From positions 79,838-143,837 of the IMG/VR virus record IMGVR_UViG_3300045988_125079: a stretch of DNA of 64,000 nt; one strand, 5' to 3'. The translations under genes and the position numbers were made by a program. Source of the DNA: a virus. Positions 8,204 through 33,407 of this stretch are shown here, one piece after another. Position 1 is the first letter of the stretch, and the number at the start of each line of letters is the position of its first letter. The notes under the pieces are model-generated. The model did no database searches. It was given only the letters and a program-made list of their open reading frames with translations, and was not told the origin of the DNA.

Positions 8204-8638
8204 ATGATAGAAGTAAAAATAAGCGGCCTGAAAGTAGCGGACTACTGGTCTCCTACCGACGGATGGAACTATGACGCCATTGATAGTCTTGCAAAAGAAT
8301 TGTACGACCGCTACCGAGAAGCCGAAGCCGAACAGACAGTGGAGTTATTCAAGAACTACATAGAAAAAATGAGTATACTACATGAAATCGATCCATTCTC
8401 TATTGACTATATCCGCGATCAGATTGAGTGGATGATTCGTCCTTTGATGCATCGTGGAATGACGATGAAAAAACGGTTGCAGATAAACGCATTGACCTAT
8501 GAGATCGTAGAAAAGTTGCTTCCCTCTTATCTTGATAATATGGCTATGCTACATCAGTTACAAAAAGAATTAGAAAATGCGGCTTTGCATCGATATTTGA
8601 TTACGCCATTTGGCAAAAGGACAGCTGTATGGAAATAA
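8204..8638 (+). CDS. hypothetical protein (144 aa)
   Basis: ATG at 8204, just after the phoH stop. The earlier track start overlaps phoH. Confidence 0.5.
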   Translation: MIEVKISGLKVADYWSPTDGWNYDAIDSLAKELYDRYREAEAEQTVELFKNYIEKMSILHEIDPFSIDYIRDQIEWMIRPLMHRGMTMKKRLQINALTYEIVEKLLPSYLDNMAMLHQLQKELENAALHRYLITPFGKRTAVWK

Positions 8639-8934
8639 TGAATGAAGCTAATTTGAATATGTTCTGGGCGATTGATGAGTATTTGACTTATAAGATGTCG
8701 CGATACTTTAATGCGTATATTCTTCTGATTGGTTTAAAAGACGATTCTGGTTTCTTTATGAATTTTGAAGGTGGCAAAGGTGGAGTCGAAGGTCATTTAT
8801 ATAAAGAAAAAGGTCCAGCGGTATTCGCATTTATTGGCGACAATTACAAGATTCTACGAAATGACGATGCAAAGTAGATTGTAGATTTAGCATTAAAACT
8901 ATGCAGTCAATACGAAGATCAATTATTTAATTGA
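8629..8934 (+). CDS. hypothetical protein (101 aa, in-frame TAG at 8875)
   Basis: The frame stays open past the TAG for 18 codons and ends at TGA immediately before the AGGAGG SD of the next gene. Confidence 0.55.
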
Positions 8935-8953: not shown

Positions 8954-9427
8954 ATGTATAAAATATTCGCTCCACGCGGCGGTGGCCGCACCTATCAAAT
9001 ATGTAAATACGCGATTGAAAACGACTGCGACATTATTGTGCCCGCTCTGAATTCTATCCAACACATTATAACGATCATAATGCAAATCTGCTATGATTCT
9101 AATGGTGAATATGAATATATTGATGACAATAACAATTTGCGTGATATCAAAATTAAAACACCAAACGACACGATTGTGATCCACGTTTTTGACGCTGATA
9201 GTTTCCGACATGCACAATTTGGCCCCGCCAGAAGAAAACCCGTGGTGATCGACGATATTGATGAATGTATGAAGCGTATTATAAATTCCGACTTGATTGA
9301 AGCTATTTCTATAGCTACATATGACCCATCTGATGTCGCACTTCATCCTAAAATCACAGATGCAGATGATCCAGCTATAGGAAGACCGGCACTGCAACCG
9401 CAACTGACCTGTAGGAGTTTACTATGA
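8954..9427 (+). CDS. hypothetical protein, CxSLL-tail family member 1 (157 aa)
   Basis: AGGAGG SD. Possible degenerate P-loop (APRGGGRT) and VVIDDID. C-terminus is TCRSLL. ATGA overlap with the next gene. Confidence 0.6.
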   Translation: MYKIFAPRGGGRTYQICKYAIENDCDIIVPALNSIQHIITIIMQICYDSNGEYEYIDDNNNLRDIKIKTPNDTIVIHVFDADSFRHAQFGPARRKPVVIDDIDECMKRIINSDLIEAISIATYDPSDVALHPKITDADDPAIGRPALQPQLTCRSLL

Positions 9428-9768
9428 CAACAGATATTTTTGGAACGAGTAATTTTAAAAAGAACGAAAAGGAAATACTAGACCTGGCTCGACATAAATT
9501 ATATGCAGAACTTAGTGAAGAGCGTGGACGTAAAGTAGATTCAGTAACGATTTATGTTGATATGGATCGCAGATATATACATTATGACTGGGATTTAACT
9601 TTTACTCTTAATCCGAAATATTTTATCAAAGTCGGAATTATATCTGGGTTACGGATGGAAATTATTGAAGGCGACGCTGCAGAACTAATTTATAAGCGAT
9701 ATCTTGAATTGGTTAGCAAGTATACAATGCAATCTAAAAAATCGTTTGTTTGTAGGAGTTTGCTATGA
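9424..9768 (+). CDS. hypothetical protein, CxSLL-tail family member 2 (114 aa)
   Basis: Start is coupled to the upstream stop (ATGA). C-terminus is FVCRSLL. Confidence 0.6.
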   Translation: MTTDIFGTSNFKKNEKEILDLARHKLYAELSEERGRKVDSVTIYVDMDRRYIHYDWDLTFTLNPKYFIKVGIISGLRMEIIEGDAAELIYKRYLELVSKYTMQSKKSFVCRSLL

Positions 9769-10184
9769 ATTACACTGTAACCGCCAGAGTCGCAATGCTG
9801 ACTTCTGTAAATTATAATGCCAAAAATGGAATATACGTCCCATTAAACGATAATAACATGGTATGGGTCATGCCATTCAAATCGTACCGTGATTTTAGAG
9901 CATGGTATTTAAGAGCAGACGATAGTTCAAAAATATTTCATCAGATATGGTTTGGACCCGGATATACCTATGATTCCATGAGTGATGTAGCGACACGGCT
10001 TGCAAAAGAATTTGATCAGCTTAACAATATGGATTATTACCGACTTGTTAATAACGATAGTATTTTAGATTTGATACATCCTATCAAGCTTGACTATACG
10101 TGGACTTTCGATCATGTCGTAAAAATCACAGCGCCATGGTATGAACGAAATAAAAAGAATCTCGTATGCTACAGCCTATTGTAA
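9765..10184 (+). CDS. hypothetical protein, CxSLL-tail family member 3 (139 aa)
   Basis: ATGA-coupled start. C-terminus is LVCYSLL, encoded by different codons (TGC TAC AGC CTA TTG TAA). Confidence 0.6.
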   Translation: MNYTVTARVAMLTSVNYNAKNGIYVPLNDNNMVWVMPFKSYRDFRAWYLRADDSSKIFHQIWFGPGYTYDSMSDVATRLAKEFDQLNNMDYYRLVNNDSILDLIHPIKLDYTWTFDHVVKITAPWYERNKKNLVCYSLL

Positions 10185-10210
10185 ACGTAGTGGGGAAGGA
10201 ACTTCGTAGA

Positions 10211-10483
10211 ATGACACGAGAAGAAACTATAAAGTTAGTTGCTGAGAGCATATTTAGCGATCCAAGTATTAAGGCAACTCAACGGCAAGATGATCTTATT
10301 AAAGTAATAACATGTATGGCTGTGAATGGTGTTGACCATGTTTTGTATAAAGATAAAAAATATAGACTTGATTGCGACGCAGGTTGGTTATTGTCTGACT
10401 TTATTATAAACGATTTTTATACATATCCGAAACCAATATACATAAATAAACAGCAGCCGCTAATTTGCAGGAGTTTATTATGA
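10211..10483 (+). CDS. hypothetical protein, CxSLL-tail family member 4 (90 aa)
   Basis: ATG at 10211 follows GGGGAAGGAA; the track start at 10166 lacks an SD. C-terminus is LICRSLL. Confidence 0.5.
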   Translation: MTREETIKLVAESIFSDPSIKATQRQDDLIKVITCMAVNGVDHVLYKDKKYRLDCDAGWLLSDFIINDFYTYPKPIYINKQQPLICRSLL

Positions 10484-11238
10484 ATAGAATTGATTTTCAA
10501 AATGGATCGTAGATTCAAACGATAGAAACCAATCACGACGAATCTCAGGATGAAGTAATTAATGTTTGGTCTGCAGATGGCAAACCAGTTAGAATCTGTC
10601 GTGAAAGCAATCCGAGCATTCAAGTGGTAAAACAATGTGCTGCAGATTATATAAAAAGATGGGCTGAAGTAAAACATTCAATTTCGACAATGCCTGAAGT
10701 ATCAGACAAGTTTGACTATGAGTTTTATAACTACTCCCCTTCTCCGACTATTAATACGATTGATTTATTTAATCGAGAATATGAAATGATAGTAAATGCA
10801 GAACGACAATCACATAAAGAAGAGGACGATATGAGAATTTTATTTGTAAGTCCAGAAAAATACGATGCCGTATGTTCTTGGTATGATAATTTAGACACTG
10901 TACAAAAACACCGTAAAGTAATCGTAATATGCAAATCGCCGGACGAATTCCGTGAAAAGTTTGACTATAGTAAAATGAATGCACAGTGTACTATGTTCTA
11001 CTTTGATGAATATCTTGGATTGGCTAAGTCGTTTGAATATTGCAAATTATTTACTAAGTTGTATGGAGAAGCTGATGTTAGATACATCTGTGGAAATAAA
11101 ATGCGACAGATAAATATAGATGATTTAATGTGCCGCAATACATTTGATTGGTTTAAAGAGTTTTCTGTCGTGCCAGAATGCTTGGAAGATCTTATTCGAA
11201 ATAGTAAGAGAGCCTTCGTTTGTAAGAGTCTATTATGA
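10480..11238 (+). CDS. hypothetical protein, CxSLL-tail family member 5 (252 aa, in-frame TAG at 10510)
   Basis: The ATGA-coupled ATG at 10480 is in frame with track ORF 10624..11238 through a single TAG. C-terminus is FVCKSLL. Confidence 0.6.
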
Positions 11239-11274
11239 TGTTTAATATAAAAAGCATTAAAGAGGTGAACACAT

Positions 11275-11463
11275 TTGGAACCCATCAGAGCATACGATCT
11301 CATCAACGGTTACTTTACACCAGAAATTAAAACTAATTCGTTTGTAATCGACAGAGCTAAAAATGTACAAGATGAAATTGAAGATTTACGAAAACAGCTT
11401 ATTGCTGTACAACGTGAGTTAGAAAAAATGAAGAAGCCCTTCCGTTGTGAATCGCTTCTATAA
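11275..11463 (+). CDS. hypothetical protein, CxSLL-tail family member 6 (62 aa)
   Basis: TTG start after AAAGAGGTG. C-terminus is FRCESLL, encoded TGT GAA TCG CTT CTA TAA. Confidence 0.5.
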   Translation: MEPIRAYDLINGYFTPEIKTNSFVIDRAKNVQDEIEDLRKQLIAVQRELEKMKKPFRCESLL

Positions 11464-11474
11464 GGAGGTCATTT

Positions 11475-11753
11475 ATGAAAGAAGATAATTTTTCAAAACA
11501 GGATATTTATAATATTGGATTCGCCGTAGTTGATGCGGTACGCGATTACGCAGTTACATATGAAAATATTATTGACGCAATTCAGATTTATGCTGAATGG
11601 CAAGAGTTAATTGGTGGTGCCTCGCTCCACGATACACTCTGGATGGATGATGGAACGCCAATGTCTCCTTCTTTGACGCGATATTTGTATTGTAAGCTAT
11701 ACGGGCTGAAAGAATATGATAACAACGACGAGGAGGATTATGGCGATGAGTGA
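11475..11753 (+). CDS. hypothetical acidic protein (92 aa)
   Basis: AAGGAGG SD and a TGA stop. Confidence 0.6.
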   Translation: MKEDNFSKQDIYNIGFAVVDAVRDYAVTYENIIDAIQIYAEWQELIGGASLHDTLWMDDGTPMSPSLTRYLYCKLYGLKEYDNNDEEDYGDE

Positions 11754-11922
11754 TCGCAAGCGTAATAAGGTTTCGAAGAGTACATATATGCGCGAAGCTC
11801 GTAAACAGCGCATGATTGAAAACCAGTTTATGCACGAAGTTGAGAAGGCTCAGGAAGCCGCGCAGCCCAAACATGATAAGTGGCAGCGTAACAAACGGCG
11901 CGAATGGGATGATGAAGAGTAA
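11740..11922 (+). CDS. small basic protein (60 aa)
   Basis: ATG at 11740 after GAGGAGGA. Lys/Arg-rich. Confidence 0.5.
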   Translation: MAMSDRKRNKVSKSTYMREARKQRMIENQFMHEVEKAQEAAQPKHDKWQRNKRREWDDEE

Positions 11923-11930
11923 GGAAGGAG

Positions 11931-12302
11931 ATGTATCGCAGCATGGATAAAGAGCCTAAAAAGCCGGGCGGAGAGAATGATACAGAGCGAGACGATATTC
12001 AGGAGATCCGTGTCAACTCTATTCCGCTGATGGTGCTTATCGCTGGTGTTTTAAGTTCCGTTGATTTTGTTGATTGGATGTTTACTATCGCAGAAATGCT
12101 GGTTGTATTCGTGCTTACATATCAGATTCTAGGGCGTGTGCTCTTTACTGCTCTGGTGGTTACGCCCATTTTGGTTGTGTTTATCAGCAGGTGTTTGGCG
12201 GCCTACGATGAGATCACGTATAGCGACGACGATATGGGCGGCGATAGCGAAGATAACGATGATGACCATTTTAACGACCACTGGAACAATTTGATTCATT
12301 GA
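11931..12302 (+). CDS. membrane protein with acidic tail (123 aa)
   Basis: AAGGAAGGAG SD. Two or three hydrophobic helices. Confidence 0.6.
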   Translation: MYRSMDKEPKKPGGENDTERDDIQEIRVNSIPLMVLIAGVLSSVDFVDWMFTIAEMLVVFVLTYQILGRVLFTALVVTPILVVFISRCLAAYDEITYSDDDMGGDSEDNDDDHFNDHWNNLIH

Positions 12303-12315
12303 GGAGTGATATTAT

Positions 12316-14859
12316 TTGTTTAGTCCACCATTATATAGCGTACTAAAATTTAACTTGAATTATATCGTTTCTCATAACTATAATTTTAAACTGACACCAG
12401 AAGAGATGGAGCAGTATAAAGTCTTGCAGGGTGACGATATGCTGTTCAGACAGATTCGGCTCATTTCCGACGACTAGAATAAATTCCAGCGCTTTATTAT
12501 CTTTGTTGATGCAACAGGCGGCCAAAACCACCCTGATGCTATCGATCATTTAGTAGAGCATGGATTCAAATTTAATGGTCAAAAATATCTGTTCTGTGAA
12601 CGTAGTGCAAGTATGGTTCGTCAGAGTATGTTGAGTTTTGTTGAGCGACATATCTACCCTGAACTCGATCGCCGTGTAAGCATGGAACTGGATTTTTCTG
12701 AGACACCAACTGTCCTGAGCAAGTATTATGCATATCGTGGTTTGATGCTGAGCAGCTGCCACTGTCTGGAGAACTGGTATCCCAAAATGATTGTTGTTCC
12801 AGATTATATGACAACGATCAAGAATCAGTGGATCGAGTACCTGGTAGACAAAACTGTGACGTTTAATGACCGCAAAACAGGCAAAGAACGTACCTGGACC
12901 CAGAAAGATATCGCCACAAAAACAGTTGACATTGATATCAACGCCTTTGATGGTGCTGGAATATGCCACCCAAGTATCATGCGCGAATTTGAAAAGCGTA
13001 TCGGTACTTCTGAACGGATGAATAGCTTGATTCTACGTGCTCCATATATCAAGGGTTGCTTACACGAGATTGATTACGAGCGTTTTTTTGAAGAGAACGG
13101 CGTTACAAAAATCAAGGATATCTGGGGTATGGAATATGATGTAACACCTGGCAGTGAACCAATGATTATTATTACTGCTTCAATGTACAAGGGTCTCAAA
13201 TATTTCAAGAAAACTGGTACCTATTCTGACTGGGAGAGATACTGGGAACTCTTCAAGAAGTACGATAACTGCCTTGGTGTAGCCAAATGGAACTTTACGC
13301 TTGAACAAGAACCGCTTTCCACCCGTAGCAACTATCAGGTTATTCAAGACCTACAGCTTGACAATGAGTCTTTTAAGCATCTAGCCGACGACAGCATTAC
13401 CTGGTATCAGAATATTGTCAAAGGCGACCCGATTTATACATACTGCTTCCTTGGTTTACTTGCCGAGAACAATGACCCGATGAATCATTACATGGCTGCT
13501 GCCCTGCGTAATCCAGTGATGGTAAAAGAGCCGGCAATCAAAGATTATATTCACTCGCTGCTTGATAAATATCGCAATGAGATGAAGTGCGGTCGGCTTT
13601 GGATGAATGCTACTTTTAAGTTCTGGGCTCCTGACCTTATCGCACTATTGCAGCATATTGGTGGCCTTCCTGTGACTGGCTGCCTTGAAGACGGTGAGTT
13701 CTACAGTTTCGATCGTCGTGGTGTGATGGAAGGAGACCGCTTAATTGAGCGCAATCCCCATATCTCTGTTGCTGAGCATGTAAAGGCCAAGGCCGTAGAC
13801 AACGAATACACCCATAAATACTGCAGCCATCTTCAGAATGTTGCTATGGTGAATATCAAATCCATCGTGGCTTCCAGACTTAATGGTTCAGATTTTGACG
13901 GCGACCTGGTTTTAATCATCGACAATCCGCTGATGATGAGTGGTGTTCCTGATAATATCCCCATTACACTTGATGTTGAAGATAAGATCACTGCGTTAGC
14001 AGAATGTGATATTGTGAAGAACAAAGTTGCTTGCACCATTCGTGGATTGAAAAGTTCTATTGGTGAGATCTCAAACTACGCAACTGCATACCATAATAAG
14101 GTTCCGACCATGGAAAAGACCAAAAAGCTCTATCACGATAATATTTCGCTTTTGAGTATCTGCAACGGAAAAGCTATCGATTATGCCAAAACCGGTGTTC
14201 TGTATCCGATCCCGCGTAATGTAGCAGCTTATGGTCGTCCTCTACCCTACTTTATGAAGTATGCAGGTCCTTACTACGCACGTTTACATAATCTCAGCAA
14301 GGCACATAGCAACATGAACCTGCTTTGCATGAGTCTGGAGCGTTGGGAGCGCGGTGTACGGTGGCGCAAAGAGCCGGCAGGCAGCTTTGATTGGCATATC
14401 ATGTACGACCCAGAGGTCTCCTATGACCAGGCAGTCTTTGATGAGATCGAAGCCATTTTCTTGGATTTCAACAAATGCCGCAAGGAACAGCTTGAGTTCG
14501 AAAAGAAATGCCGCAACTGGCAATTATATCATAAGGACATCGAGTCGCGTATTACCAAAGAAGAAGCCAAGACATATGAAACGAACTGGCAGGCGATCTA
14601 CAATGTCTACCGTAACAAGTGCAAGCTGGTGTGTCCTGATGTGAGAGAGCTGGCGAATATTCTTGTAGTGCTTTGCTATGAGAAGTATCCAAATAAATTT
14701 AAGAAGTTCTTGTGGCACATGGCCGGCGCTGGTGTGGTCGAAAATATCAAGCCGGTTCTTGTTCAGTTACCAGTTCACGACCCGAACGGTGAGTATGAAT
14801 ATCTTGGCCAGCGATATAGTTTGGCTGAACCGAAAACTTATGAAGCGAGGGTGAAATAA
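12316..14859 (+). CDS. YonO/RdRP-like single-subunit two-barrel RNA polymerase (847 aa, in-frame TAG at 12475)
   Basis: TTG start 9 nt after GAGGAG, in frame through the TAG with track ORF 12613..14859. GSDFDGD (13891-13905) is the DxDGD metal-binding signature. ERNPHISVAEHV and ERSASMVRQS resemble cellular-RdRP/YonO family blocks. Confidence 0.7.
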
Positions 14860-14860
14860 T

Positions 14861-15160
14861 ATGGATAATTTGAAAGATCCGGTTACAATGGATAAACCCG
14901 AGCAAATGAATACACTTCATTGTCTATTTTGCTGCTCTACAAAAGTATATCCTGTTGTTGGAAAAGATATAAAATGTAAAAACAAATATCCGCCATATCA
15001 AGAAATTAAAATTCCAAGTATTGATGGACTATATTGCCCTGATTGTAAAACAGCTTATGCTATAGACAAAAATCTTGACGATGTAATTCAGCAGTGTAGA
15101 AATATTTCGGGTGATTTAAATTTTTATCCATCAGAAATAAAGGAGAAAATTGATGTTTAA
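14861..15160 (+). CDS. zinc-ribbon protein (99 aa)
   Basis: SD GAGGGTG. CxxC...CPDC cysteine pairs. Confidence 0.6.
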   Translation: MDNLKDPVTMDKPEQMNTLHCLFCCSTKVYPVVGKDIKCKNKYPPYQEIKIPSIDGLYCPDCKTAYAIDKNLDDVIQQCRNISGDLNFYPSEIKEKIDV

Positions 15161-15709: not shown

Positions 15710-15862
15710 ATGAATATGGCCGCGTTAATTGCATATTGGAGAGCTAGACCATTTTCGTTCATAGAAAAGTATTTTCATCTTCGTCTATATTGGTATCAAA
15801 AATTATATTTACGAATGATCTATGATAGGAGGTTAAATGGCATATACAACTTTCTACTGTAA
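15710..15862 (+). CDS. possible small ORF (50 aa)
   Basis: ATG 10 nt after AAGGAGG. Overlaps the next gene by 26 nt. Below the track cutoff. Confidence 0.3.
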   Translation: MNMAALIAYWRARPFSFIEKYFHLRLYWYQKLYLRMIYDRRLNGIYNFLL

Positions 15863-16649
15863 TGAAAATATGTTGCTTGATCATTGGCAGGACTATCACG
15901 AGTCAAATCTGATGTTGCGAAACCTGCTAAAGCGAACCTCCCTCTCCCCTATTGAATGCGCCACGTTTTATTATGAGCGGATGAAAAATCCTGAGTCTGT
16001 CAGTTATGATCGCAGCCACTTGATTCAGATGTTCAGCAGAGGTCGTAAAAATAACGCGCCTATATTTGACGTACATCAAGTTGTACTTTATCAGAAAGAT
16101 CTGGACTATATTACAGAGGCGCGCCGAAAATATCATATCAACTACGCACAATTACGTGTTCTGTTTGGGGTGATATTCTTCTGCCGACTATACGGAAGTG
16201 ATACCTTTGCTTTGGACACCGAGTTTAAGATGAAACGTTTTGGTGGCTGTTTTGAAGAGCAGACAGAGATCATGTATTGCGCTGGGAAGAACTAGGATGA
16301 CGGCTATAATACAGTGCGGGGTATGAAGGAAATTTCTGACGACTATCATCTGCTGAACAGGACAGGTACTGACGACATTGGATGCTTATACCAGTACCAG
16401 AATTTCGCTCTTGATAAGAATGACACGATTGCGTACACGTTTAATGTGACGCTTGAAAACAATCGACTGAATCTAAGTGCCATAGTGCGAGAGTTGTTTG
16501 ACCCGAAGGAATGTTATTGCATCGTGTGTGGCGAACAGTATCACTCAGAAAAGCCAAATGCCAGCAGATATTGCAAAGGGTGTGCGGCAAAAAAAGAACA
16601 AGCACGTCTGGCGAAAATCAAGCGAAAACGCAGCAAATGCACGAAATGA
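15837..16649 (+). CDS. hypothetical protein with C-terminal zinc ribbon (270 aa, in-frame TAG at 16293)
   Basis: Track ORFs 15837..16295 and 16314..16649 share one frame and are joined by the TAG. AGGAGG SD. CIVCGE...CKGC motif. Confidence 0.65.
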
Positions 16650-16934: not shown

Positions 16935-18134
16935 ATGGACGAATTTAAAAAGAATGCTTTTCGTAAGATGGATGATGAATCTTTCGATGAATATATGATG
17001 CGGATTGGTAGCGCGTGCCATGAGCACAATTTGACATAGGATGAAGCTGCCGAGATTCTGAATGATGCAACAGGTTCTAACTATGGTGAATGTCGCTATC
17101 GTAAGACCTATAAAGCATGGAAGGCTGGCTACGACTATGCGCTTGAGCATGAATGCGGAGATGCCGTGGCTAATGATATCCAACGTCTGAAGATTGAACA
17201 GGTAAAAGCCCGCGATGAACGTGCAGCAGCTAACAGAGTGTACCGCAATATGGCCAGAACGGAGTCTATTAAAGATCTGATTGCTGCTGCGGTAGTTCCT
17301 TATGACAAGAATAATTTTCTAAATGTCGTACAATATGAATGCAGTGATCATGATGTGATTGTGTGTCTGTCTGACTTGCACACTGGATCTGGTATTGATA
17401 CTGCATGGAATAAGTTCGATAAAGAAATTCTTAAGTCGCGACTTGAATCCTACATTGCACAGATTTATAACATCGTAGCTCGTCATGCCGCCGAAAAGAT
17501 TCATGTACTATTGCTTGGTGATCTGATCAATGGCCATATCCATATGAATACCCGTATACAAAACAACGAGAACAGTATTGAACAAGTCATGATTGCAGCG
17601 GAGCTTGTGAGTAATTTTGTGGCTGAATTATATAAAGTGTGCAGTCATATCGATGTGTATGCGGTGAGTGGCAATCATTCGCGTGTATTTCCAAATAAGG
17701 ATGAACAGGTTGCAGGAGATGAACTCGAAGCGCTGATTCCGTTCTATATGAAGGCACGGCTACAGAATCTGGCTGGCATTGAAGTAAAAACAGAGAAGCT
17801 CGATCCTACGTTTGGCGGATTTAAGGCTCGTAATAGTTTAGTGATGTATGCACATGGAGATAAAGACTCCCCTGCTAACGTCGTTGAACACTTGACCATG
17901 ATGGTAAAACAGCCGATTGATCTGGTCTTCCTCGGACATCGCCATACAAACGGAATGACAACCGTGCACGGTACAAAGGTTATTGAAAGTGGCTGCGTAT
18001 GTGGCACTGATAGTTTCGCGGTTGGGCTTCGTAAAAATGATGTTCCGCAGCAGGCCGTTGCCGTGATTGATGATGGCGGTCTGGAGTGTTTGTATGATGT
18101 CAAGCTGGAGAAGCCAGCAAAGATAGTAATTTAA
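16935..18134 (+). CDS. metallophosphoesterase (calcineurin-like) with N-terminal HTH-like segment (399 aa, in-frame TAG at 17037)
   Basis: ATG at 16935 is in frame through the TAG with track ORF 17166..18134. Phosphoesterase motifs present: LSDLHTG, GDLINGH, GNHSR, GHRHT. Confidence 0.7.
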
Positions 18135-18549: not shown

Positions 18550-18810
18550 ATGGAAGAAAAATTTCACAAAGATTTAGGAGGCGATTACTTCTACTGTTAT
18601 TCCCGCCGTTGTGCATTCTTTATTCGTGCAATGGGAATTTTCTATGAAGAGATTGGCGAGCATCCAACTACGGGCTCTGTATATACAAAGTTCCACAAAA
18701 CAAAAAAGCTCAATGAAATCTTAAAGCTGTGGGATGATATCAAGTATCGCTTTGACAATATGTCAGATGACGGAACGGTGGTGAAGGACTATGGCCAGAA
18801 CTGCCATTGA
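18550..18810 (+). CDS. hypothetical protein (86 aa)
   Basis: AAAGGAGG SD and a TGA stop. Confidence 0.55.
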   Translation: MEEKFHKDLGGDYFYCYSRRCAFFIRAMGIFYEEIGEHPTTGSVYTKFHKTKKLNEILKLWDDIKYRFDNMSDDGTVVKDYGQNCH

Positions 18811-19789
18811 AAAGAAACCGCCACGCATTAAAGTGCCAGCCTCATGGAGTGGTGGCAAATGTATGTGCTGCGGAAAAATCTATGATGTGCGTAAGGGAAA
18901 TTTCTCGAAAACACAGAGTCAATGGTTTATAGGCAATGATGGATATCTGCCGTGGTGCAACGAGTGCCGCGAACGCATGTTTGAATTCTACGCCAAGAAA
19001 TACAATGACGAGGATGAAGCGATCGACCGTCTGGCTATGATGTTTGATACCTATGTTGATGATAAGCTGTTGGAGGCTTCTGAGCATTCTACCACATCCG
19101 CTTTGAAGATCAACACTTACATGGGACGGCTCAATATGCGTCAGCACGCTGGTAAATCCTATGACGATGTAATCGATCAGAAGAAAAAGGACGCACTTGC
19201 TGCCGGCGATACCAAGGGAACAAAAGTCACTCAGAGAATGATCAAGAATTAGGGGCGTGGCTTGGATGATCAAGATTATCTATTCCTTGAAGACCACTAC
19301 CAGAATCTTATTACACGCCATGAATGCAAGACAGCCGCACAGGAGATTCTGTTTAAGCGCATTGCAAAGGCAGAGCTTAACTGCGAAAAGGCCGATGCGA
19401 CTGGTGACACAAAGAAAATCAAGGAAGCCAATGATAACCTACAGAATCTAATGGGTTCAGCTCAGATCAAGCCGAACCAGACGAATGATAATGCACTGGC
19501 TGAGACGAATACTTTTGGCACGCTAATTCAGAAATAGGAAGAGGAAGAGCCGATTCCAGAACCGTCGCCCGAGTGGCAAGACGTTGATAATATTGGTAAG
19601 TATTTTAGAGTATGGGTGCTGGGCACTTTGCTTAAGATGTTCAACTTAAAGAATCCATATCAAGACGAATTTGATGAAGAGTTTGAACGATATACTGCTC
19701 ATAAACCAGAAACAAATGAGGATGATACCGCAGATACCAGCCTCCGCGAAACTATTTTTGGTATTGGCGAAGGCGGTGGTTCCGCATGA
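18791..19789 (+). CDS. terS: putative small terminase subunit (332 aa, in-frame TAGs at 19250 and 19535)
   Basis: Three same-frame pieces are joined by TAG. It lies immediately upstream of terL and overlaps it (ATGA). N-terminal zinc ribbon CMCCG...CNEC. Confidence 0.5.
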
Positions 19790-20276
19790 GTAAAGAGAAA
19801 TTAACAGATAAGGAAGTAGCGAATACAAAATCAGAAAAGATAATGAACGCAGTAGCTTTAAGAGCGTCTTTTTATCGAGCGAATCCTCAGCGGTTTGCAA
19901 AAGATTATTTAAACCTGACATTGAAACCATTCCAAGAGCTGCTATTGTTTTTGATGGTGAGATGCACAGGTTTCTGCTAGGTCGCCGCACGCGGGTTGGG
20001 CAAGTCCTTTTTGACAGCAGTTTTTTGCGTTATCACATGTATTTTGTGGCCTGGTTCCAAAGTCTGTATTGCGTGTAAAGTGCGAAGTCAGTCCATTAGT
20101 ATTTTGGACGAAAAAATAATGAAAGAAATCTATCCGAACAGCCCACTATTAAGAGCTGAGATAAAAAAAGTAGATATCAATAATCAAAAAGCAGAAATAA
20201 TATTTAGAAACGGTAGCTACATCAAAGTCGTTACTGCAACAGACTCATCACGAGGTTCGCGTGCGACTTTATTGGT
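19786..20276 (+). CDS. terL: terminase large subunit, exon 1 (in-frame TAG at 19978)
   Basis: Walker A AARGLGKSF. Ends ...SRGSRATLLV just before the expected Walker B DE. The downstream frame degenerates into intron sequence. Confidence 0.75.
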
Positions 20277-21327
20277 AAACAAACATGCCAGATTTTATAG
20301 AAACATAAAACCTAGACTGGGCAAAATCGGTAAATGCTAAAAATTTATTTGAAGGAAGGAATAATTATAGCTAAGGTAAATCCGCGAAAGAGAACGAAAG
20401 AACAATTCCAATATCTACTAGATGAGAAATTTGGACCAATTTATGAAGTCACTGGAGAGTACGTTGATAGCCAGACAAAAGTCGGGTTACTTTGCAAGGT
20501 GTGTGGAAATATATTTTATAAAGTACCTAATAAAATGACTTCCTGTGGCGAGGGCTGCTATTTTTGTAGTAAGAAAAATTGGCACAAAACAACCGAAAGC
20601 TTTCAAAAAGAGTTAGACAATAGATTCCCAAACACATACGAAGTTTTGACTGAATATGTAAAAGCACGGAAACCTCTTTTGGTGAAACGGATTCCATGTG
20701 GACATATTTATAAAGTATCACCTGATAATTTGTTGCGTGGAAAAGGTTGCGCTTTATGTACAATACGTCAATCTCATTATATGGATATCGTTGAAGACTA
20801 TTTTAAGAAACACAATATTATTTTTGAAAAAGAAAAAAGATTTGACGATTGCCGTAATATTCGTGTTTTACCTTTCGATTATTATATTCCAGATAAGAAT
20901 TTATGTATCGAGGTCGATGGTGAATTTCATTATCCACATGTCACATACGAAAAAAGTGATTAGACACTCAAAGGTGCTTCCCAGTAGGAGGCAGTCCATG
21001 AGCGTGATTTAATTAAAACCGCATACTGTGAACAAAATGGAATTGATTTACTACGACTTCCATATTTTGAAGAGAAAAATTTTGAAAAAATTCTTGATGA
21101 TAAATTCAATGCTAATACCGAGATAAATGAAGAAATTTCGCAAGGTTCTTCATCATTGTAACGCATAGGAGATGAATAAATATAATTCTCCCACGAGTGT
21201 CCAGCACAACAGTATATAGGACTGTTCGCAGAAATGCGCCTAACGTTAAACGAGGGTGAAAATATATGCTGACCTTACAGGAAACTGTAAGAATCGTTGG
21301 ATAAAAAGCCGACGAGTTAACATATTG
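20277..21327 (+). mobile_element. group I intron in terL (~1051 nt)
   Basis: Removing it joins ATLLV to CDEYRLLSKDVID, restoring the Walker B motif in one frame (491+1267 nt = 586 codons). P1 is UUGGU(20272-20276)/GCCAG(20287-20291) with a U-G wobble at the splice site. P10 is ACAU(20283-20286)/GUGU(21328-21331). The last intron nt, 21327, is G. A GAAA-capped hairpin sits at 21274-21291. Confidence 0.7.
20334..21161 (+). CDS. intron-encoded nuclease: tandem zinc-ribbon repeats plus PD-(D/E)XK (Vsr/DUF559-like) C-terminal domain (in-frame TAGs at 20961 and 20985)
   Basis: Two CxxC...GxGCxxC repeats, then FDYYIP...CIEVDGEFHY...ERD..K...GIDLLRLPY. The start codon is uncertain. Confidence 0.55.
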
Positions 21328-22594
21328 GTGTGATGAGTACCGTTTACTTTCTAAAGATGTTATTGATTTGATCTTGAAGAAGTTCCTGAATATTGTTCGT
21401 CATCCTGGATATTTGGATAAGCCACAATATACACATCTTGCAGAGCGAAACAAAGAATTCTACCTAAGTTCTGCTTGGTTCCAAAACCATTGGAGCTATG
21501 AAAAATGTCAGGACTATTTCGTAAATATGATCGACTTTAATAAAAAATATTTCTGCGTATCTTTCCCGTATCAAATGTCAATTAAGAGCGGTTTGCTGTT
21601 GAAAGAAGCTGTAGAGGACGAAATGAGTGAATCCAGTTTTTCTGATTTGACATTTGCAATGGAGAATGAATGTAAATGGCTTGGTGCTACTGAGGGTGGG
21701 CTATTCCAATTTGATGACATCAACAAAACACGCGTCATTGAAAAGGCGTTTTACGCACCGAATCTTTTACTTAATCAAGCTGCTATGGACGTACCAAAGA
21801 GGAAAAATGGCGAAGTACGAATTCTTACCGCAGATATTGCATTGATGAGCAGCCGCAAAAACGACAACGACGCAACTAGTATCTTTTTGAACTGTATGCT
21901 GCCAAATAAATCAGGGCGCTATACGAGTAATTTCGTTTACTCCGAGAATATAGAAGGTATGAGCATTCAAGACCAAGCGCTAAAACTGCGCCGCTATTTT
22001 GAATATTTTAACTGTGATTATCTTGGTATCGATGCCCGTTCAGTTGGTATTCCATTGATTGACCTACTCATGCGCGATATTTATGATCCTGAAATTGGTG
22101 AAACCTATCCAGCAATCAGTTGCTGCAACAATTCAGAAATCGCCGACCGTTGTTCAGATAAGGCTGCAAGGAAGGTCATTTGGGCTATTATGGGCAGTTC
22201 TCAGTTCAACAGCGATGTAGCCATTGGTTTGCGTAGCGGTTTTCAGCAGGGGCGCATTCACCTTCTGCAAAGTGAATATAGCTGCGAAGATCAGCTACGC
22301 AAGTTGTATAAGGGATACGATAAAATGTCGCCTAGCGAACGAGCTGCTCTACAAATGCCGTATATCAATACAGGTCTTGCAATAAACGAGCTCGTTAATT
22401 TGGGTTACGAAACAGTAAATAATGTAATCAAGGTCAAGGAGAAATCTGGGTGTCGTAAAGACCGTTACTCTTCCCTGTCCTACAATTATTATATCGCACA
22501 GCAAGTTGAGCGAAGTATGGAGAAACGGCACAATAAACCGAAGTTGCTCGATTTTAACTTCCGTGCGCCAGTATTGAAGAAGGGAGGGCTGTAA
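21328..22594 (+). CDS. terL: terminase large subunit, exon 2
   Basis: Begins (V)CDEYRLL and has no SD or start of its own. The nuclease-half region precedes the portal gene. Confidence 0.75.
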
Positions 22595-24114
22595 TGGCTG
22601 AAAATATAATGAATAAAAAGGTCATGGTCACGAATTCCAAAAGTGGAAAGACCTCCTATGTTACATATTCCGACTTGGTAAGTGGAGTTTATGCTAACTT
22701 ATCAAAGATTGGTATTCGTAACCTTGAATCCACATCAGAGACTAATCCGACATACACCAAGTATACGAAAGATCAAATCGTAAAATATCTTTCCAATCCA
22801 GCCAGCTACGAAAAGCAGCTACGAAATATGAGCAAATATCTGTTTAATATTTCAAACTACTATCGTCGGCTGATTCAGTATTTTGCGAATATGTCAACAT
22901 TTTCTTATGAACTTGTTCCCTACGGACTCGACAGATCTAAAAGTATCAACCTAAATAAGTTTAAGAAAGCATACTACGCGAGCTCTACAGCCGTTGAATT
23001 GATGAATATTCCTCACGAAGCAATCAAAATCTTAACGATTGCATTTCGCGACGACGTTTATTATGGATACGCATGGGAGACAAACGACAGCTTTGCTTTC
23101 CAAAATCTCGATGCAGACTATTGTAAGATCAGCAGCATTGAGGATGGTGTATACAATTTTGCATTCAACTTCTCATACTTTGATTCTAACACGGATAAGT
23201 TACCCAACTATCCACCCGAGTTCCAGACCATGTATAACACATACAAAACCAATACACAGTTGTACAAATGGCAAGAGCTGGACAGTTCTAAGTCTATCTG
23301 TATCAAGGTGAATGAGCATGACTATATTCCAATTCCGCCGTTTGTGAGCCTTTTTAGTGCTCTGGCTGACATTGAGGATTATCGTGCCATTAGTAAAAAC
23401 GCCAGTGAGGCAAATAACTATAAAGCCATTGCGATGGAAATTCCTATCAACGACGAAGATGGTACGTTTTTGATTGACTATGACACCGCTAAAGAGTTCT
23501 ACGACATGATGAGTAACGTGTTGCCACCGAATATTGGTGCGATTCTCACCCCCATGAAACTTACTGACTGGAATTTTGACAAGAGCGGTGTAAATAGTGA
23601 TACGAACGAGGTCGCAAAGGCCGAAGCAACACTATTTGCGCAAGCTGGTGTAAACAAAATCTTGTTTGGCGGCGGCGACGATCCGGCTGCTTCTACTCTA
23701 AATCTGTGTACTGTGAATGACCAAATGATCGTATTTGCAGTGATTCGTCAGTTGGAACGCTGGATCAACCGTAAACTCAAGAGCGTATCAAGTTCTTATA
23801 AATTCCGTATCAATTTCTTGCCTGTGACACATTATAACCGCGCCGAAATGCATGAGCGCTATTTAAAAGATGCTCAGTATGGTATTCCAACCCGTAGCGC
23901 TATTCTTGCAACTGCCGGGTTTGCTGGCACAGACTACGAAAATATGGCTTATCTCGAGAACGACGTTCTAAGTTTGAATACTGTTGAAGTTCCGCTTACA
24001 AGTTCCAACACACAGTCTAGTGCTGTTGATGAGGGCGGTAGGCCGTCTAATGCTAGTGAGGGTAAACAGTTAAGTGATGCTGGCGAAGTAACAGCAGATA
24101 GACAGGAGGAGTAA
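22594..24114 (+). CDS. portal protein (506 aa)
   Basis: Size and position directly after terL. GGGAGGG SD. No TAG codons. Confidence 0.7.
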   Translation: MAENIMNKKVMVTNSKSGKTSYVTYSDLVSGVYANLSKIGIRNLESTSETNPTYTKYTKDQIVKYLSNPASYEKQLRNMSKYLFNISNYYRRLIQYFANMSTFSYELVPYGLDRSKSINLNKFKKAYYASSTAVELMNIPHEAIKILTIAFRDDVYYGYAWETNDSFAFQNLDADYCKISSIEDGVYNFAFNFSYFDSNTDKLPNYPPEFQTMYNTYKTNTQLYKWQELDSSKSICIKVNEHDYIPIPPFVSLFSALADIEDYRAISKNASEANNYKAIAMEIPINDEDGTFLIDYDTAKEFYDMMSNVLPPNIGAILTPMKLTDWNFDKSGVNSDTNEVAKAEATLFAQAGVNKILFGGGDDPAASTLNLCTVNDQMIVFAVIRQLERWINRKLKSVSSSYKFRINFLPVTHYNRAEMHERYLKDAQYGIPTRSAILATAGFAGTDYENMAYLENDVLSLNTVEVPLTSSNTQSSAVDEGGRPSNASEGKQLSDAGEVTADRQEE

Positions 24115-24115
24115 C

Positions 24116-24331
24116 ATGACACAATATCTATGCGAAATAGTCGTGCATGGTTCTCGTGCCGCCGGGATGTCGAAGTTTTTGACAGACCGTGGCGCTCTCC
24201 TGCTACGAAAAGATCCACCAAATAACTATGTATTTATCAATGATAATGTATTTGAAAATGCTCTGGCTGAGTTGCAGATTGCAATTCGCCAGGGCTTTTA
24301 TTTTGCGGACGAGGAGGTGAAAACAGAATGA
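24116..24331 (+). CDS. hypothetical protein (71 aa)
   Basis: AGGAGGAG SD. Coupled to its neighbours. Confidence 0.55.
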   Translation: MTQYLCEIVVHGSRAAGMSKFLTDRGALLLRKDPPNNYVFINDNVFENALAELQIAIRQGFYFADEEVKTE

Positions 24332-26529: not shown

Positions 26530-26565
26530 AAGCCGTCCGTTTGTCGGGCGGCCTTATTTTTGTTT
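26530..26565 (+). terminator. rho-independent terminator
   Basis: Stem GCCGUCCG/CGGGCGGC followed by a T-rich tail. Confidence 0.6.
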
Positions 26566-26579
26566 TAGGAGGTTTAATT

Positions 26580-27644: not shown

Positions 27645-28178
27645 ATGGCAAGACGTGCAACTACAAAACCTGCGGCTCCAAAGGCAACTGCTGCAAAGAC
27701 TCCTGTTGAGCAGCCAGTTGTTTCTGCTGCAGAGATTACAAATGAAACTATGGTCGAGTGTCGAAGTGGCGTCTCTGGCAGCCTGATCTACAAATCCTCA
27801 CTAAACCCCGGCTATGTAGTCGAGTGGAGCGGTCTGGGTGAAATTCAGGAGATGGAGTATCGCGAGCTCGTTTCTATGCGTGGCAATCAGCGCCGTTTCT
27901 TTGAGGAGAATTGGATTTTGATTGATGATCCCGCAGTTATCAAGAAGCTGGGTGTCGGTCGCTACTACCAGAATAGCCTGTCTACTGATGACTTCGAGGA
28001 TGTATTTAATATGTCTGCTGATGAAATCAAGGAGATCGTGCCTACTTTGCCTGGAGGCACTAAGGATGCCATCGCATCTGAGGCCAAGAAAAAGATCGAT
28101 TCTGGCGAGCTGGACAGTCGCAGCGCTATCAAGGCGCTGGAAGACTCTCTGGATATTGAGTTGGAAGATACTATCTAA
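27645..28178 (+). CDS. hypothetical head-associated protein (177 aa)
   Basis: AGGAGGA SD. Lies in the head module. Confidence 0.5.
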   Translation: MARRATTKPAAPKATAAKTPVEQPVVSAAEITNETMVECRSGVSGSLIYKSSLNPGYVVEWSGLGEIQEMEYRELVSMRGNQRRFFEENWILIDDPAVIKKLGVGRYYQNSLSTDDFEDVFNMSADEIKEIVPTLPGGTKDAIASEAKKKIDSGELDSRSAIKALEDSLDIELEDTI

Positions 28179-33349: not shown

Positions 33350-33378
33350 AGCAGACTTATTGAAAGCCTGCTTTTTTT
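33350..33378 (+). terminator. rho-independent terminator
   Basis: Hairpin AGCAG..CUU/AAG..CUGCU followed by a run of seven T. Confidence 0.5.
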
Positions 33379-33407
33379 AGATTCGGCTCCAAAAGGAGGA
33401 ATGTGAT

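What the first reader, a model, noticed from the sequence alone, without database searches (positions are those of the whole stretch)
9410..11463. Six consecutive, otherwise unrelated small proteins end in the same C-x-S-L-L carboxy terminus
The six C-termini are:
- ..LTCRSLL (9427)
- ..KKSFVCRSLL (9768)
- ..KKNLVCYSLL (10184)
- ..QQPLICRSLL (10483)
- ..KRAFVCKSLL (11238)
- ..KKPFRCESLL (11463)

In four cases the tail overlaps a conserved junction, TGTAGGAGTTTAnTATGA, which supplies the SD and the ATGA-coupled start of the next gene. The motif is also kept where the nucleotides differ completely. Ser is AGT, AGC or TCG. Leu is TTA, TTG, CTA or CTT. In those cases the next gene has its own separate SD.

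The conservation therefore appears to act on the peptide, with a basic-hydrophobic-Cys-x-Ser-Leu-Leu end. No other protein in the window ends this way.

It could be a shared C-terminal docking, degradation, packaging or modification signal. It could also be a recombination linker that shuffles gene cassettes.
Basis: seen in the sequence. Interest (0 to 1): 0.75.

Follow-up and report, generated by a model that had tools for sequence, protein, structure and literature searches.

The report
Shared C-terminal tail on phage gene cassettes
In a group of uncultured gut phages, a gap-free run of 4-9 otherwise unrelated small proteins all end in the same short peptide (hydrophobic-x-Cys/Phe-x-Ser-Leu-Leu), conserved as protein rather than as DNA; it looks like a common address tag whose reader is still unknown.

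Summary
The six consecutive genes (8954-11463) all end C-x-S-L-L-stop, and no other ORF in the 64 kb does.

Every relative I could fetch (about 80 loci) has an uninterrupted run of 4-9 such genes at the same place, upstream of a YonO-like RNA polymerase gene.

Selection is on the peptide. Across 174 distinct tail sequences, Leu(-2) is invariant and uses all six Leu codons. Ser(-3) uses all six Ser codons. Stops are TGA or TAA.

At least 15 families carry the tail and show no detectable homology to one another. Remote homologues of one family lack it. AlphaFold leaves it unstructured, on a linker of variable length in the family where this was examined.

The tail comes in three genome-wide flavours: basic-Cys (the window), acidic Cys-x-Cys, and Phe. 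Orthologous bodies carry the flavour of their genome.

The tail-coding DNA often also holds the Shine-Dalgarno and ATGA start of the next gene. Cassette order is permuted at these junctions.

My best reading is a C-terminal docking motif read by one common partner that co-evolves with it and is probably phage-encoded. The partner and the purpose (virion loading, timed degradation or hub recruitment) are unresolved. I found no described equivalent.

The parts
8954..9427 (+). Array gene 1 (family 0, 157 aa). It has a small ASCE/P-loop-like core (PRGGGRT ... VVIDDID), then a roughly 30-aa flexible linker and the tail ...QPQLTCRSLL.
   Evidence: alignment A2: the linker varies in length, S155 and L156 are conserved; AlphaFold2: core confident, residues 127-157 largely below pLDDT 50; segments 127-138 and 149-157; Foldseek: large-terminase ATPase domains, E about 1e-3, TM 0.53.
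9410..9427 (+). Tail 1 and junction: TGT AGG AGT TTA CTA TGA. It encodes C-R-S-L-L-stop, contains the AGGAG SD, and overlaps the next gene's start as ATGA.
9424..9768 (+). Array gene 2 (family 1, 114 aa), tail ...KKSFVCRSLL.
9751..9768 (+). Tail 2 and junction: TGT AGG AGT TTG CTA TGA (SD plus ATGA start of gene 3).
9765..10184 (+). Array gene 3 (family 8, 139 aa), tail ...KKNLVCYSLL.
10167..10184 (+). Tail 3: TGC TAC AGC CTA TTG TAA. The peptide is the same, but 9 of 18 bases differ from the junction consensus. The next gene has its own SD downstream.
10211..10483 (+). Array gene 4 (family 6, 90 aa from ATG 10211; an alternative ATG lies at 10166), tail ...QQPLICRSLL.
10466..10483 (+). Tail 4 and junction: TGC AGG AGT TTA TTA TGA (SD plus ATGA start of gene 5).
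10480..11238 (+). Array gene 5 (family 4, 252 aa). It has an in-frame TAG at 10510-10512 that is read through. The conserved core is about 130 aa, with a short linker and the tail ...KRAFVCKSLL.
   Evidence: alignment A4; AlphaFold2: tail is coil, pLDDT about 31-45.
11221..11238 (+). Tail 5: TGT AAG AGT CTA TTA TGA. This is a decayed copy of the junction (SD weakened; the ATGA opens only a 31-codon ORF).
11275..11463 (+). Array gene 6 (family 12, 62 aa, a short helical protein; TTG start with its own SD), tail ...KKPFRCESLL.
11446..11463 (+). Tail 6: TGT GAA TCG CTT CTA TAA. The peptide is kept with unrelated codons, and the next gene has its own GGAGG SD. The left edge of a 3.4-kb mosaic patch (11445-14864, 92% identical to the A-type locus L001) falls here.
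8629..8934 (+). Former array member (101 aa with a read-through TAG at 8875-8877). Its orthologue in acidic-type genomes ends ...EQCVCETLL. The window copy ends ...QLFN and has lost the tail.

Best explanation
The tail is a short linear C-terminal recognition motif: hydrophobic(-7)-x-[Cys/Phe](-5)-x-[Ser/Thr/Pro](-3)-Leu(-2)-[Leu/Ile/Val](-1)-COOH. It sits at the end of a C-terminal segment that AlphaFold2 leaves unstructured, preceded in family 0 by a linker of variable length. It has been appended to many unrelated proteins encoded in one contiguous cassette array. I infer that it works as an address tag: an extended, alternately hydrophobic strand with a free carboxylate that docks into one common receptor. 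All products of the array would thereby be brought to the same place or fate. All tails of a genome share one flavour (basic, acidic or Phe), and like-charged tails should not bind one another. I therefore infer that the receptor is a separate molecule that co-evolves with the tails, most likely phage-encoded. The purpose I favour, weakly, is loading of a swappable set of effector proteins into or onto the virion or another phage machine. This would resemble T4 internal proteins or encapsulin cargo. The same DNA has two secondary roles. In about half of the junctions the codons for x-Ser (AGG AGY, GAG AGY) form the Shine-Dalgarno, and the stop overlaps the next start (ATGA). The shared 18-30 nt also serve as the crossover point at which cassettes are added, lost and reordered. 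Shown: peptide-level selection, modularity, array restriction, concerted flavours and junction-located rearrangements. Inferred: docking to a common receptor, that the receptor is phage-encoded, and the purpose.
For: Peptide-level selection:
- Across 174 distinct tails, Leu(-2) is invariant with all 6 Leu codons. Ser(-3) uses all 6 Ser codons, with a few Thr and Pro. Cys uses both codons, and stops are TGA 90 / TAA 84.
- The test is not circular. 116 of 120 database homologues of family 0 were retrieved through their bodies and end [CF]-x-[SN]-[LM]-[LI]. All 16 homologues of family 4 end C[RK]SLL.

Restriction to the array:
- 529 tail-bearing ORFs fill the array intervals of 80 loci, and only 6 other ORFs lie inside them.
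- The relaxed motif is absent from the rest of the window. In 17,150 ORFs of 70 head-region loci it gives 3 hits, all in minus-strand ORFs that I read as spurious.

Modularity:
- There are at least 15 BLAST families, and none merges in profile-profile comparison once the tails are removed.
- Remote family-0 homologues of 123-134 aa stop right after the core and lack both linker and tail.
- In two families AlphaFold2 leaves the tail unpacked (largely below pLDDT 50), and the family-0 linker varies by 0-20 aa.

Concerted flavours:
- Every genome is uniformly B, A or F.
- Net charge at -10..-4 is +2.1 (B), -1.6 (A) and +0.4 (F).
- Orthologous bodies of families 0, 1 and 4 carry the flavour of their genome.

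Receptor not the neighbouring genes:
- The window has B tails but an A-like RNA polymerase, and the three small genes upstream of that polymerase gene are not flavour-linked.

Linkage to the head module:
- Despite mosaicism in between, tail flavour separates perfectly with alleles of the major-capsid-like gene 26541-27575, genes 27645-28178 and 24116-24331, and an 86-aa protein at 18550-18810.
- The fixed differences in the 86-aa protein change charge by +3 from B to A, which is the complementary direction.

Dual use of the DNA.
Against: - No receptor was identified, and no binding was tested. Complex prediction was not possible with these tools.
- The association with head genes may only reflect lineage structure. 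Only about 5 of about 30 conserved genes separate. Fixed differences in the capsid-like protein show no charge complementarity.
- The array lies upstream of the YonO-like polymerase gene, with no promoter or terminator signal above chance. Its timing of expression relative to head assembly is therefore unknown.
- The array proteins have no common charge or size. One is ATPase-like, which is not typical of packaged internal proteins.
- A non-polar C-terminus fits a proteolysis tag equally well.
Confidence: 0.55

Rival explanations
1. The tail is a C-terminal degron. The invariant S-L-[L/I/V]-COOH would be engaged by a host AAA+ protease such as ClpXP, as LAA-COOH of the SsrA tag is. The lineage-specific upstream part would bind an adaptor, as AANDENY binds SspB. 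This would make all array proteins short-lived, for example toxic takeover proteins of a temperate phage.
For: The extreme C-terminus is non-polar, lies on an unstructured linker, and the final position is conserved. Established knowledge: non-polar C-terminal pentapeptides destabilise proteins in bacteria, and the SsrA tag has a two-part adaptor-plus-protease architecture. The SPbeta-like gene order (YonO, YonJ_N) is compatible with a temperate lifestyle.
Against: The genome-wide flavour switches (Cys to Phe, acidic to basic) are hard to explain with a conserved host protease. They would need different hosts or adaptors for each lineage, yet A and B lineages have exchanged DNA (a 3.4-kb patch at 92%). 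It is also unclear why exactly the contiguous array genes, and no others, would need a degron.
Confidence: 0.2
2. The tails bind one another. The translationally coupled array products would assemble into one hetero-oligomeric complex through their C-terminal strands, so the tails co-evolve with each other rather than with a separate receptor.
For: Concerted flavours occur within genomes. ATGA coupling suggests stoichiometric co-expression. The core order (family 3), 0, 1, 6 is partly conserved between the B and F lineages.
Against: All tails of a genome carry the same charge sign (B +1..+4, A mostly -1..-3), which disfavours self-association. Array content and order vary between close relatives (4-9 members, permuted), which is unlike a fixed complex.
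Confidence: 0.1
3. The tail docks onto a conserved host hub such as the sliding clamp, or a PDZ-type carboxylate-binding domain. The clamp motif is QL[SD]LF, often C-terminal, and S-L-[L/F] matches its positions 3-5. A PDZ class I ligand is [S/T]-x-hydrophobic-COOH.
For: At sequence level, S/T at -3 and L/I/V at -1 are exactly the class I PDZ degeneracy. S-L-L matches the last three clamp-motif positions. This is a resemblance recalled from established knowledge, not a test.
Against: The defining Gln of the clamp motif is never present; the position holds Cys or Phe. Pro occupies -3 in 15 of 174 tails. No PDZ domain was found in the roughly 40 window proteins scanned against Pfam. The flavour switches argue against a conserved host pocket.
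Confidence: 0.07
4. The peptide is a by-product. What is selected is the DNA/RNA junction (Shine-Dalgarno, ATGA coupling and a recombination linker), or else the tail is a remnant of common ancestry of paralogous genes.
For: Three or four window junctions share TGTAGGAGTTTRYTATGA. In overlap junctions x is R or E and Ser is mostly AGY, which forms AGGAG or GAGAG. Cassettes are permuted at these junctions.
Against: In 96 of 98 distinct non-overlap junctions the SD lies downstream of the stop, yet the peptide is kept with TCN Ser codons and any Leu codon. Leu(-2) is invariant over six codons. The bodies show no homology in hhalign, and the two that were modelled gave different fold-search results: family 0 resembles terminase ATPase domains and family 4 has no significant match. 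Homologues outside the group lack the tail.
Confidence: 0.05

Closest known systems
T4-type internal proteins (IPI, IPII, IPIII, Alt) with the capsid targeting sequence, in hyperplastic IP loci
   Same: A highly diverse set of small phage proteins shares only a short terminal peptide that addresses them to one destination (PMC3012670). The genes lie in variable cassette-like loci.
   Different: The T4 signal is N-terminal, directs proteins to the scaffolding core, and is removed by the prohead protease. Here the signal is the extreme C-terminus with a different sequence. No protease site and no packaging have been shown.
Encapsulin cargo targeting peptides
   Same: A short C-terminal peptide specifies loading of unrelated cargo proteins into an HK97-fold shell (PMC7925596). 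Targeting peptides and shells vary in specificity.
   Different: The sequence consensus is different, and a free terminal carboxylate is not known to be required. Here the only HK97-type candidate is the phage capsid itself, and binding is untested.
SsrA-type and other C-terminal degrons (LAA-COOH for ClpX, with an upstream SspB-binding part)
   Same: A non-polar extreme C-terminus on an unstructured segment, with an invariant terminal part and a more variable upstream part.
   Different: The residues are different. The tail is genome-encoded on a defined gene set rather than added by tmRNA. Lineage-specific flavours are not expected for a host protease.
Class I PDZ ligands ([S/T]-x-hydrophobic-COOH) and beta-clamp-binding motifs (QL[SD]LF)
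   Same: The terminal S/T-L-[L/I/V]-COOH matches the PDZ class I rule and the last three clamp-motif positions. Both are docking peptides shared by many unrelated clients.
   Different: There is no Gln. Leu(-2) and the position -5 residue are also constrained, and Pro is tolerated at -3. No PDZ protein was seen in the window.
Cassette-shuffling junction repeats in phages and integrons (lambdoid boundary sequences, T4 promoter-stem-loops, attC sites)
   Same: Short repeated sequences at gene boundaries are where cassettes are exchanged or reordered.
   Different: Here the repeat lies inside the coding region and is conserved as protein. The DNA similarity is partial (9 of 18 bases differ in two window tails), and no recombinase or structured site is implied.

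Membership tests
T4-like capsid targeting sequence (internal proteins) | N-terminal roughly 10-residue signal removed by the prohead protease at an L/I-x-E site | tested here: not met
   The shared peptide is at the extreme C-terminus. The N-termini of the six proteins share nothing.
T4-like capsid targeting sequence (internal proteins) | The proteins are present inside the capsid and are ejected with the DNA | not testable with these tools
   This needs virion proteomics. The only evidence here is a linkage of tail flavour with head-gene alleles.
Encapsulin cargo targeting peptide | C-terminal peptide on a flexible linker, appended to unrelated cargo | tested here: met
   The family-0 linker varies in length (A2), the tail is unstructured in both models (A4), and the bodies are unrelated.
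Encapsulin cargo targeting peptide | Consensus of the Gly/Ser/Leu/Ile-rich type (for example LGIGSL) that binds a pocket on the inner face of an HK97-fold shell | tested here: not met
   The tail consensus is hydrophobic-x-[C/F]-x-S-L-[L/I/V]. Binding to the capsid protein was not testable.
SsrA-like ClpX degron | Terminal L-A-A-COOH (or a close variant) recognised by ClpX | tested here: not met
   The terminal residues are S-L-L/I/V in 158 of 174 tails, and never LAA.
SsrA-like ClpX degron | Confers rapid proteolysis | not testable with these tools
   This needs stability assays.
Class I PDZ ligand | Ser/Thr at P-2 and a hydrophobic residue at P0 with a free carboxylate | tested here: inconclusive
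   The rule is met in 159 of 174 tails, but Pro is at P-2 in 15. No PDZ domain was found among the scanned window proteins.
Bacterial sliding-clamp binding motif | Q-L-[S/D]-L-[F/L] with a conserved Gln at position 1 | tested here: not met
   Position -5 is Cys (159) or Phe (15), never Gln.
CaaX-type prenylation or other Cys-dependent modification signal | An obligatory Cys at a fixed distance from the C-terminus (-4 for CaaX) | tested here: not met
   The Cys is at -5, and it is replaced by Phe in all tails of the F lineage.
Nucleotide-level cassette junction (SD/ATGA coupling repeat) | Conservation of the nucleotide sequence rather than of the peptide | tested here: not met
   All synonymous codons are used, and 9 of 18 bases differ in two window tails. 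In 96 of 98 distinct non-overlap junctions the SD is downstream.

The most novel reading that the evidence does not exclude
The tail is a cargo-loading peptide for the phage's own capsid, or another virion part. It would be an encapsulin-like C-terminal targeting system in a bona fide tailed phage. A recombining array could then load a changeable set of effector proteins, such as anti-defence or takeover factors, into the particle for delivery with the DNA. The three flavours would be matched lock-and-key pairs with lineage-specific head proteins.
Probability: 0.2. Interest if true: 0.9.

Novelty: new variant of a known kind. Interest (0 to 1): 0.72.

Why it matters
If the tail is an address tag, it defines a previously undescribed protein-targeting system in abundant human-gut phages. 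It also comes with a ready-made list of at least 18 client families and three specificity variants. It would assign a shared fate to a block of proteins of unknown function. It would also show how a coding motif can serve at once as targeting signal, ribosome-binding site and recombination site, which lets a phage swap effector cassettes without losing their targeting. A portable 8-10-residue tag could also be used to engineer phage cargo.

Tried and rejected
- **Family searches.** Pfam and PHROGs scans of the six proteins and their neighbours gave nothing informative. PDB sequence searches gave nothing.
- **Fold searches.** Family 0 gave only a generic terminase-like ASCE ATPase fold. Family 4 gave nothing.
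- **Cultured relatives.** Nucleotide search of cultured phages found only one uncultured fragment. The closest cultured relatives by RNA polymerase (Thomasclavelia phages TR-TP1/TP2 at 41%, SPbeta-like at 24%) and Clostridia MAG prophages (48-57%) have no shared tails. They could therefore not inform function.
- **Cys chemistry.** Lipidation, metal binding, lanthionine and S-glycosylation were considered and are unlikely as the shared mechanism, because the F lineage replaces Cys with Phe in every tail.
- **Self-association.** Tail self-association was down-weighted because the tails of a genome are like-charged.
- **Nearby genes as receptor.** The RNA polymerase and the three small genes at 11475-12302 were rejected as flavour-specific receptors. 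RNA polymerase, PhoH and the genes at 11475-12302 do not separate by tail flavour, and for the RNA polymerase and gene 11931-12302 the window, which has B tails, carries A-like alleles.
- **Association mapping.** Comparing tail flavour with alleles of about 30 conserved genes gave only weak leads: the 86-aa protein at 18550-18810, the capsid-like gene, 27645-28178 and 24116-24331. This is confounded by lineage structure.
- **Regulatory signals.** The promoter and terminator scan was at chance level.
- **Literature.** Searches for the motif strings and for shared C-terminal motifs in phage arrays found nothing relevant.
- **A circular count.** The per-position synonymous/non-synonymous count is partly circular, because the sequences had been selected by the motif. 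I do not rely on it for positions -5 and -3.
Full report
**1. The observation**

The six + strand ORFs end exactly as reported:

| ORF | C-terminus |
|---|---|
| 8954-9427 | ...LTCRSLL |
| 9424-9768 | ...FVCRSLL |
| 9765-10184 | ...LVCYSLL |
| 10166/10211-10483 | ...LICRSLL |
| 10480-11238 | ...FVCKSLL |
| 11275-11463 | ...FRCESLL |

- No other ORF of at least 40 aa in any frame of the 64-kb window ends C.SLL.
- From the window's own amino-acid frequencies, the chance of this ending is 5e-6 per gene. Six of about 80 genes has P of about 7e-24.
- The junction TGTAGGAGTTTRYTATGA is present twice exactly, once with one mismatch and once with two.

Two details need correcting.
- The gene after the third junction carries an in-frame TAG (10510). 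It is a real 252-aa gene only because this phage reads TAG as sense.
- The fourth junction is decayed. Its SD is AAGAG and its ATGA opens a 31-codon ORF. The sixth gene uses a TTG start at 11275 with its own SD.

**2. It is a property of a whole phage group**

I used the downstream 748-aa protein (Pfam RdRP PF05183, a YonO-like single-subunit RNA polymerase) as a handle. This fetched 75 loci from 75-150-kb human-gut viral contigs.

- Every locus has 3-8 ORFs upstream of the polymerase gene ending C-x-S-L-[LVI]. With a slightly relaxed pattern the count is 4-9.
- The arrays are gap-free. 529 tail-bearing ORFs fill the array intervals of 80 loci, with only 6 other non-overlapping ORFs inside.
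- The motif is absent elsewhere. There are none in the rest of the window. In 17,150 ORFs from 70 loci around the head genes there are 3 hits, all in minus-strand ORFs that I read as spurious.
- The closest cultured relatives by polymerase lack any shared tail. These are Thomasclavelia phages TR-TP1/TP2 (41%), SPbeta-type Bacillus phages (24%) and prophage-like loci in Clostridia MAGs (48-57%).
- One 8.6-kb contig binned with an Oscillospiraceae MAG carries a window-like array (L130). This is a weak hint at the host.

**3. Selection is on the peptide**

Codon use across 174 distinct 36-nt tail sequences:

| Position | Residue | Codons used |
|---|---|---|
| -5 | Cys 159, Phe 15 | TGT/TGC or TTT/TTC |
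| -3 | Ser 158, Pro 15, Thr 1 | Ser uses all six codons, across both codon families |
| -2 | Leu, invariant | all six Leu codons |
| -1 | Leu 158, Ile 11, Val 5 | several |
| stop | | TGA 90, TAA 84, never TAG |

This is not circular. Homologues of family 0 were retrieved from a 5.8-billion-protein collection through their bodies. Of these, 116 of 120 end [CF]-x-[SN]-[LM]-[LI], and the remaining 4 include 2 fragments. All 16 homologues of family 4 end C[RK]SLL.

The relation to the ribosome-binding site is clear.
- In stop/start-overlap junctions, x is Arg or Glu and Ser is mostly AGY, so that AGGAG or GAGAG lies inside the tail.
- In 96 of 98 distinct non-overlap junctions the SD lies downstream of the stop. 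There x is free (E, H, K, R, D, N, A, Y, Q) and Ser may be TCN.
- The peptide is therefore kept whether or not the DNA has a second job.

**4. The tail is a portable add-on at the end of an unstructured segment**

- With the last ten residues removed, the tail-bearing proteins fall into 15 BLAST families. None merges in profile-profile comparison. The F lineage adds three more.
- In family 0 the folded core ends at ...YDPSDVAL. It is followed by 0-20 variable residues and then the conserved tail (A2).
- AlphaFold2 models the family 0 core confidently, as an ASCE/P-loop-like fold. The nearest PDB folds are large-terminase ATPase domains (E about 1e-3). It leaves residues 127-157 largely below pLDDT 50 (segments 127-138 and 149-157).
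- Family 4 behaves the same way.
- Remote family-0 homologues of 123-134 aa from other phages stop right after the core and have neither linker nor tail.

**5. Three genome-wide flavours**

| Flavour | Pattern | Loci | Net charge at -10..-4 |
|---|---|---|---|
| B (the window) | KKxF-x-C-[RKH]-SLL | 23 | +2.1 (range +1 to +4) |
| A | x-N-E-C-x-C-E-SLL | 54 | -1.6 (range -3 to +1) |
| F | ...F-[RHEK]-S-L-[LI] | 4 | +0.4 |

The F lineage was found through family-0 homologues.

- Each genome carries only one flavour.
- Orthologous bodies (families 0, 1, 4) carry the flavour of the genome they sit in.
- The tails of one genome differ at synonymous sites, so this is not simple ongoing gene conversion. 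It looks like co-adaptation of the whole set to one partner.
- The Cys to Phe replacement argues against thiol chemistry as the shared mechanism.
- Like-charged tails argue against tail-tail assembly.

**6. The junction is also where cassettes move**

- Among B-type genomes the order of families is permuted. Examples are 0-1-8-6-4-12, 0-1-6-10-9-4-7, 0-1-6-8-4-10-9-7 and 0-8-4-7.
- A given downstream cassette follows different upstream families through the same junction sequence. Family 8 follows 0, 1 or 6. Family 10 follows 4 or 6. Family 4 follows 6, 8 or 9.
- The left edge of a 3.4-kb mosaic patch in the window falls exactly at the last tail. This patch (11445-14864) is 92% identical to the A-type locus L001. 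The rest of the window is 97% identical to the B-type locus L021.

**7. Looking for the reader of the tag**

- No PDZ, protease or clamp domain was detected among the roughly 40 window proteins scanned.
- The window has B tails with an A-like polymerase, and the three small genes at 11475-12302 do not separate by flavour. None of these is therefore likely to be the flavour-specific partner.
- Across about 30 conserved genes, only these separate perfectly by flavour:
  - family 0 itself;
  - an 86-aa protein (18550-18810, weak DUF5659 match);
  - a 71-aa protein (24116-24331);
  - the 344-aa protein 26541-27575, which I take from its position to be the major capsid protein (its PHROG family has no assigned function);
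  - the 177-aa protein after it (27645-28178).
- The portal nearly separates.
- The genes in between do not separate. These are the polymerase, 15837-16649, 18791-20340 and the gene 21368-22594, a weak large-terminase match.
- Only the 86-aa protein shows fixed differences in the complementary direction, +3 net charge from B to A.
- These are leads, not findings, because lineage structure could produce the same pattern.

**8. Interpretation**

Shown:
- a peptide-level conserved, modular C-terminal motif;
- it is restricted to one contiguous array;
- it evolves in concert within genomes;
- it is encoded by DNA that doubles as a coupling site and a crossover site.

Inferred:
- It is a docking or address signal read by one common partner that co-evolves with it and is probably phage-encoded (confidence about 0.55).
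- Within that reading I weakly favour recruitment to the virion or another phage machine. This rests on the linkage with head genes and on analogy with the T4 internal-protein targeting sequence (PMC3012670) and with encapsulin C-terminal targeting peptides (PMC7925596).
- The main rival is a C-terminal degron (0.2).
- Smaller rivals are tail-tail assembly, a host hub, and a pure nucleotide by-product. The last is essentially excluded by codon usage.

**9. Novelty**

- Literature searches for the motif and for shared C-terminal motifs in phage arrays found nothing.
- The six proteins have no Pfam match above the curated cut-off, and their only PHROG matches are weak hits to families of unknown function.
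- The concept of a shared terminal address on diverse phage proteins is known. This motif, its C-terminal position, its three matched flavours and its triple use of the coding sequence are not.
- I classify it as a new variant of a known kind, with a 0.2 chance of being an encapsulin-like cargo-loading system in a tailed phage.

**10. Side observation: the genetic code**

- About a quarter of naive gene calls end in TAG and read through in frame.
- At 17 in-frame TAG sites of the window, relatives carry TGG at 11.
- At 20 sites where relatives have TAG, the window has Trp at 14.
- Gln is rare at these sites.
- This points to TAG read as Trp rather than the Gln reported for gut phages (PMC10607447, PMC9523058).
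- No tRNA gene lies in the window.

Noticed in passing
Whole window, + strand about 5.8-61 kb; e.g. TAG at 8875, 10510, 37596-37598; genes 33360-38717, 42304-47418: TAG is read as sense. 25 of 91 naive gene calls end in TAG and continue in frame; the tape measure protein, for example, becomes 1785 aa with 3 TAGs. The aligned codon in relatives is mostly TGG (Trp): 11 of 17 window TAG sites, and the window has Trp at 14 of 20 sites where relatives have TAG. Tyr and Phe occur sometimes, and Gln is rare. This suggests TAG read as Trp rather than the TAG-to-Gln code reported for gut phages. The minus-strand genes at both ends of the window have no in-frame TAG. The window has no tRNA gene.
   Followed up: partly
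Window 12316-14859 (RdRP-like), 16935-18134 (metallophosphatase; its orthologue in relatives carries a YonJ_N domain), 21368-24114 (weak large-terminase match, then portal): The gene order YonO-like RNA polymerase, YonJ-like phosphoesterase, terminase, portal, together with distant similarity to Bacillus SPbeta yonO (24%) and Thomasclavelia phage TR-TP1/2 (41%), marks this as an uncultured SPbeta-like phage of gut Clostridia. One window-like array lies on a contig binned with an Oscillospiraceae MAG (L130).
   Followed up: partly
Window 11445-14864: This is a mosaic patch. It covers three small genes and the RNA polymerase gene and is 92% identical to A-type genomes (L001). The flanks are 97% identical to the B-type L021, whose polymerase region is only 75% identical. 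The left breakpoint is at the last tail.
   Followed up: yes
Window 18550-18810: This 86-aa protein (weak DUF5659 / phrog_21297 match) is 98-100% identical in all B-type genomes and 81-84% identical in all A-type genomes, although flanking genes are shuffled between types. Its fixed differences remove two Asp and add one Arg in the A type, complementary to the acidic A tails. It is a candidate partner of the tails, but the lead is weak.
   Followed up: partly
L113 13277-16653; also L066, L127 and L128, where the polymerase match is about 0.9 kb longer: In some relatives the polymerase gene is interrupted exactly at the catalytic NGSDFDGD motif by an HNH_3 endonuclease gene (526-aa ORF, then HNH, then 320-aa ORF). 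This looks like a homing-endonuclease or intron-like insertion. Rfam found no group I intron at gathering threshold.
   Followed up: partly
L066 2370-2423 (minus strand): There is a RAGATH-5 RNA match at the gathering score (50.4 bits) in an A-type relative, upstream of the array region. No match was found in the window.
   Followed up: no
Window 8629-8934: The gene just upstream of the array is an array member in A-type genomes, where it ends ...EQCVCETLL. In the window it ends ...QLFN. This is an example of tail loss at the edge of the array.
   Followed up: partly
Window 11475-12302: Three small genes conserved in all lineages follow the array directly. They are a very acidic 92-aa protein (pI 4.1), a very basic 60-aa protein ending WDDEE, and a 123-aa protein with a hydrophobic core and acidic ends. 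Their function is unknown, and their alleles are not linked to tail flavour.
   Followed up: no
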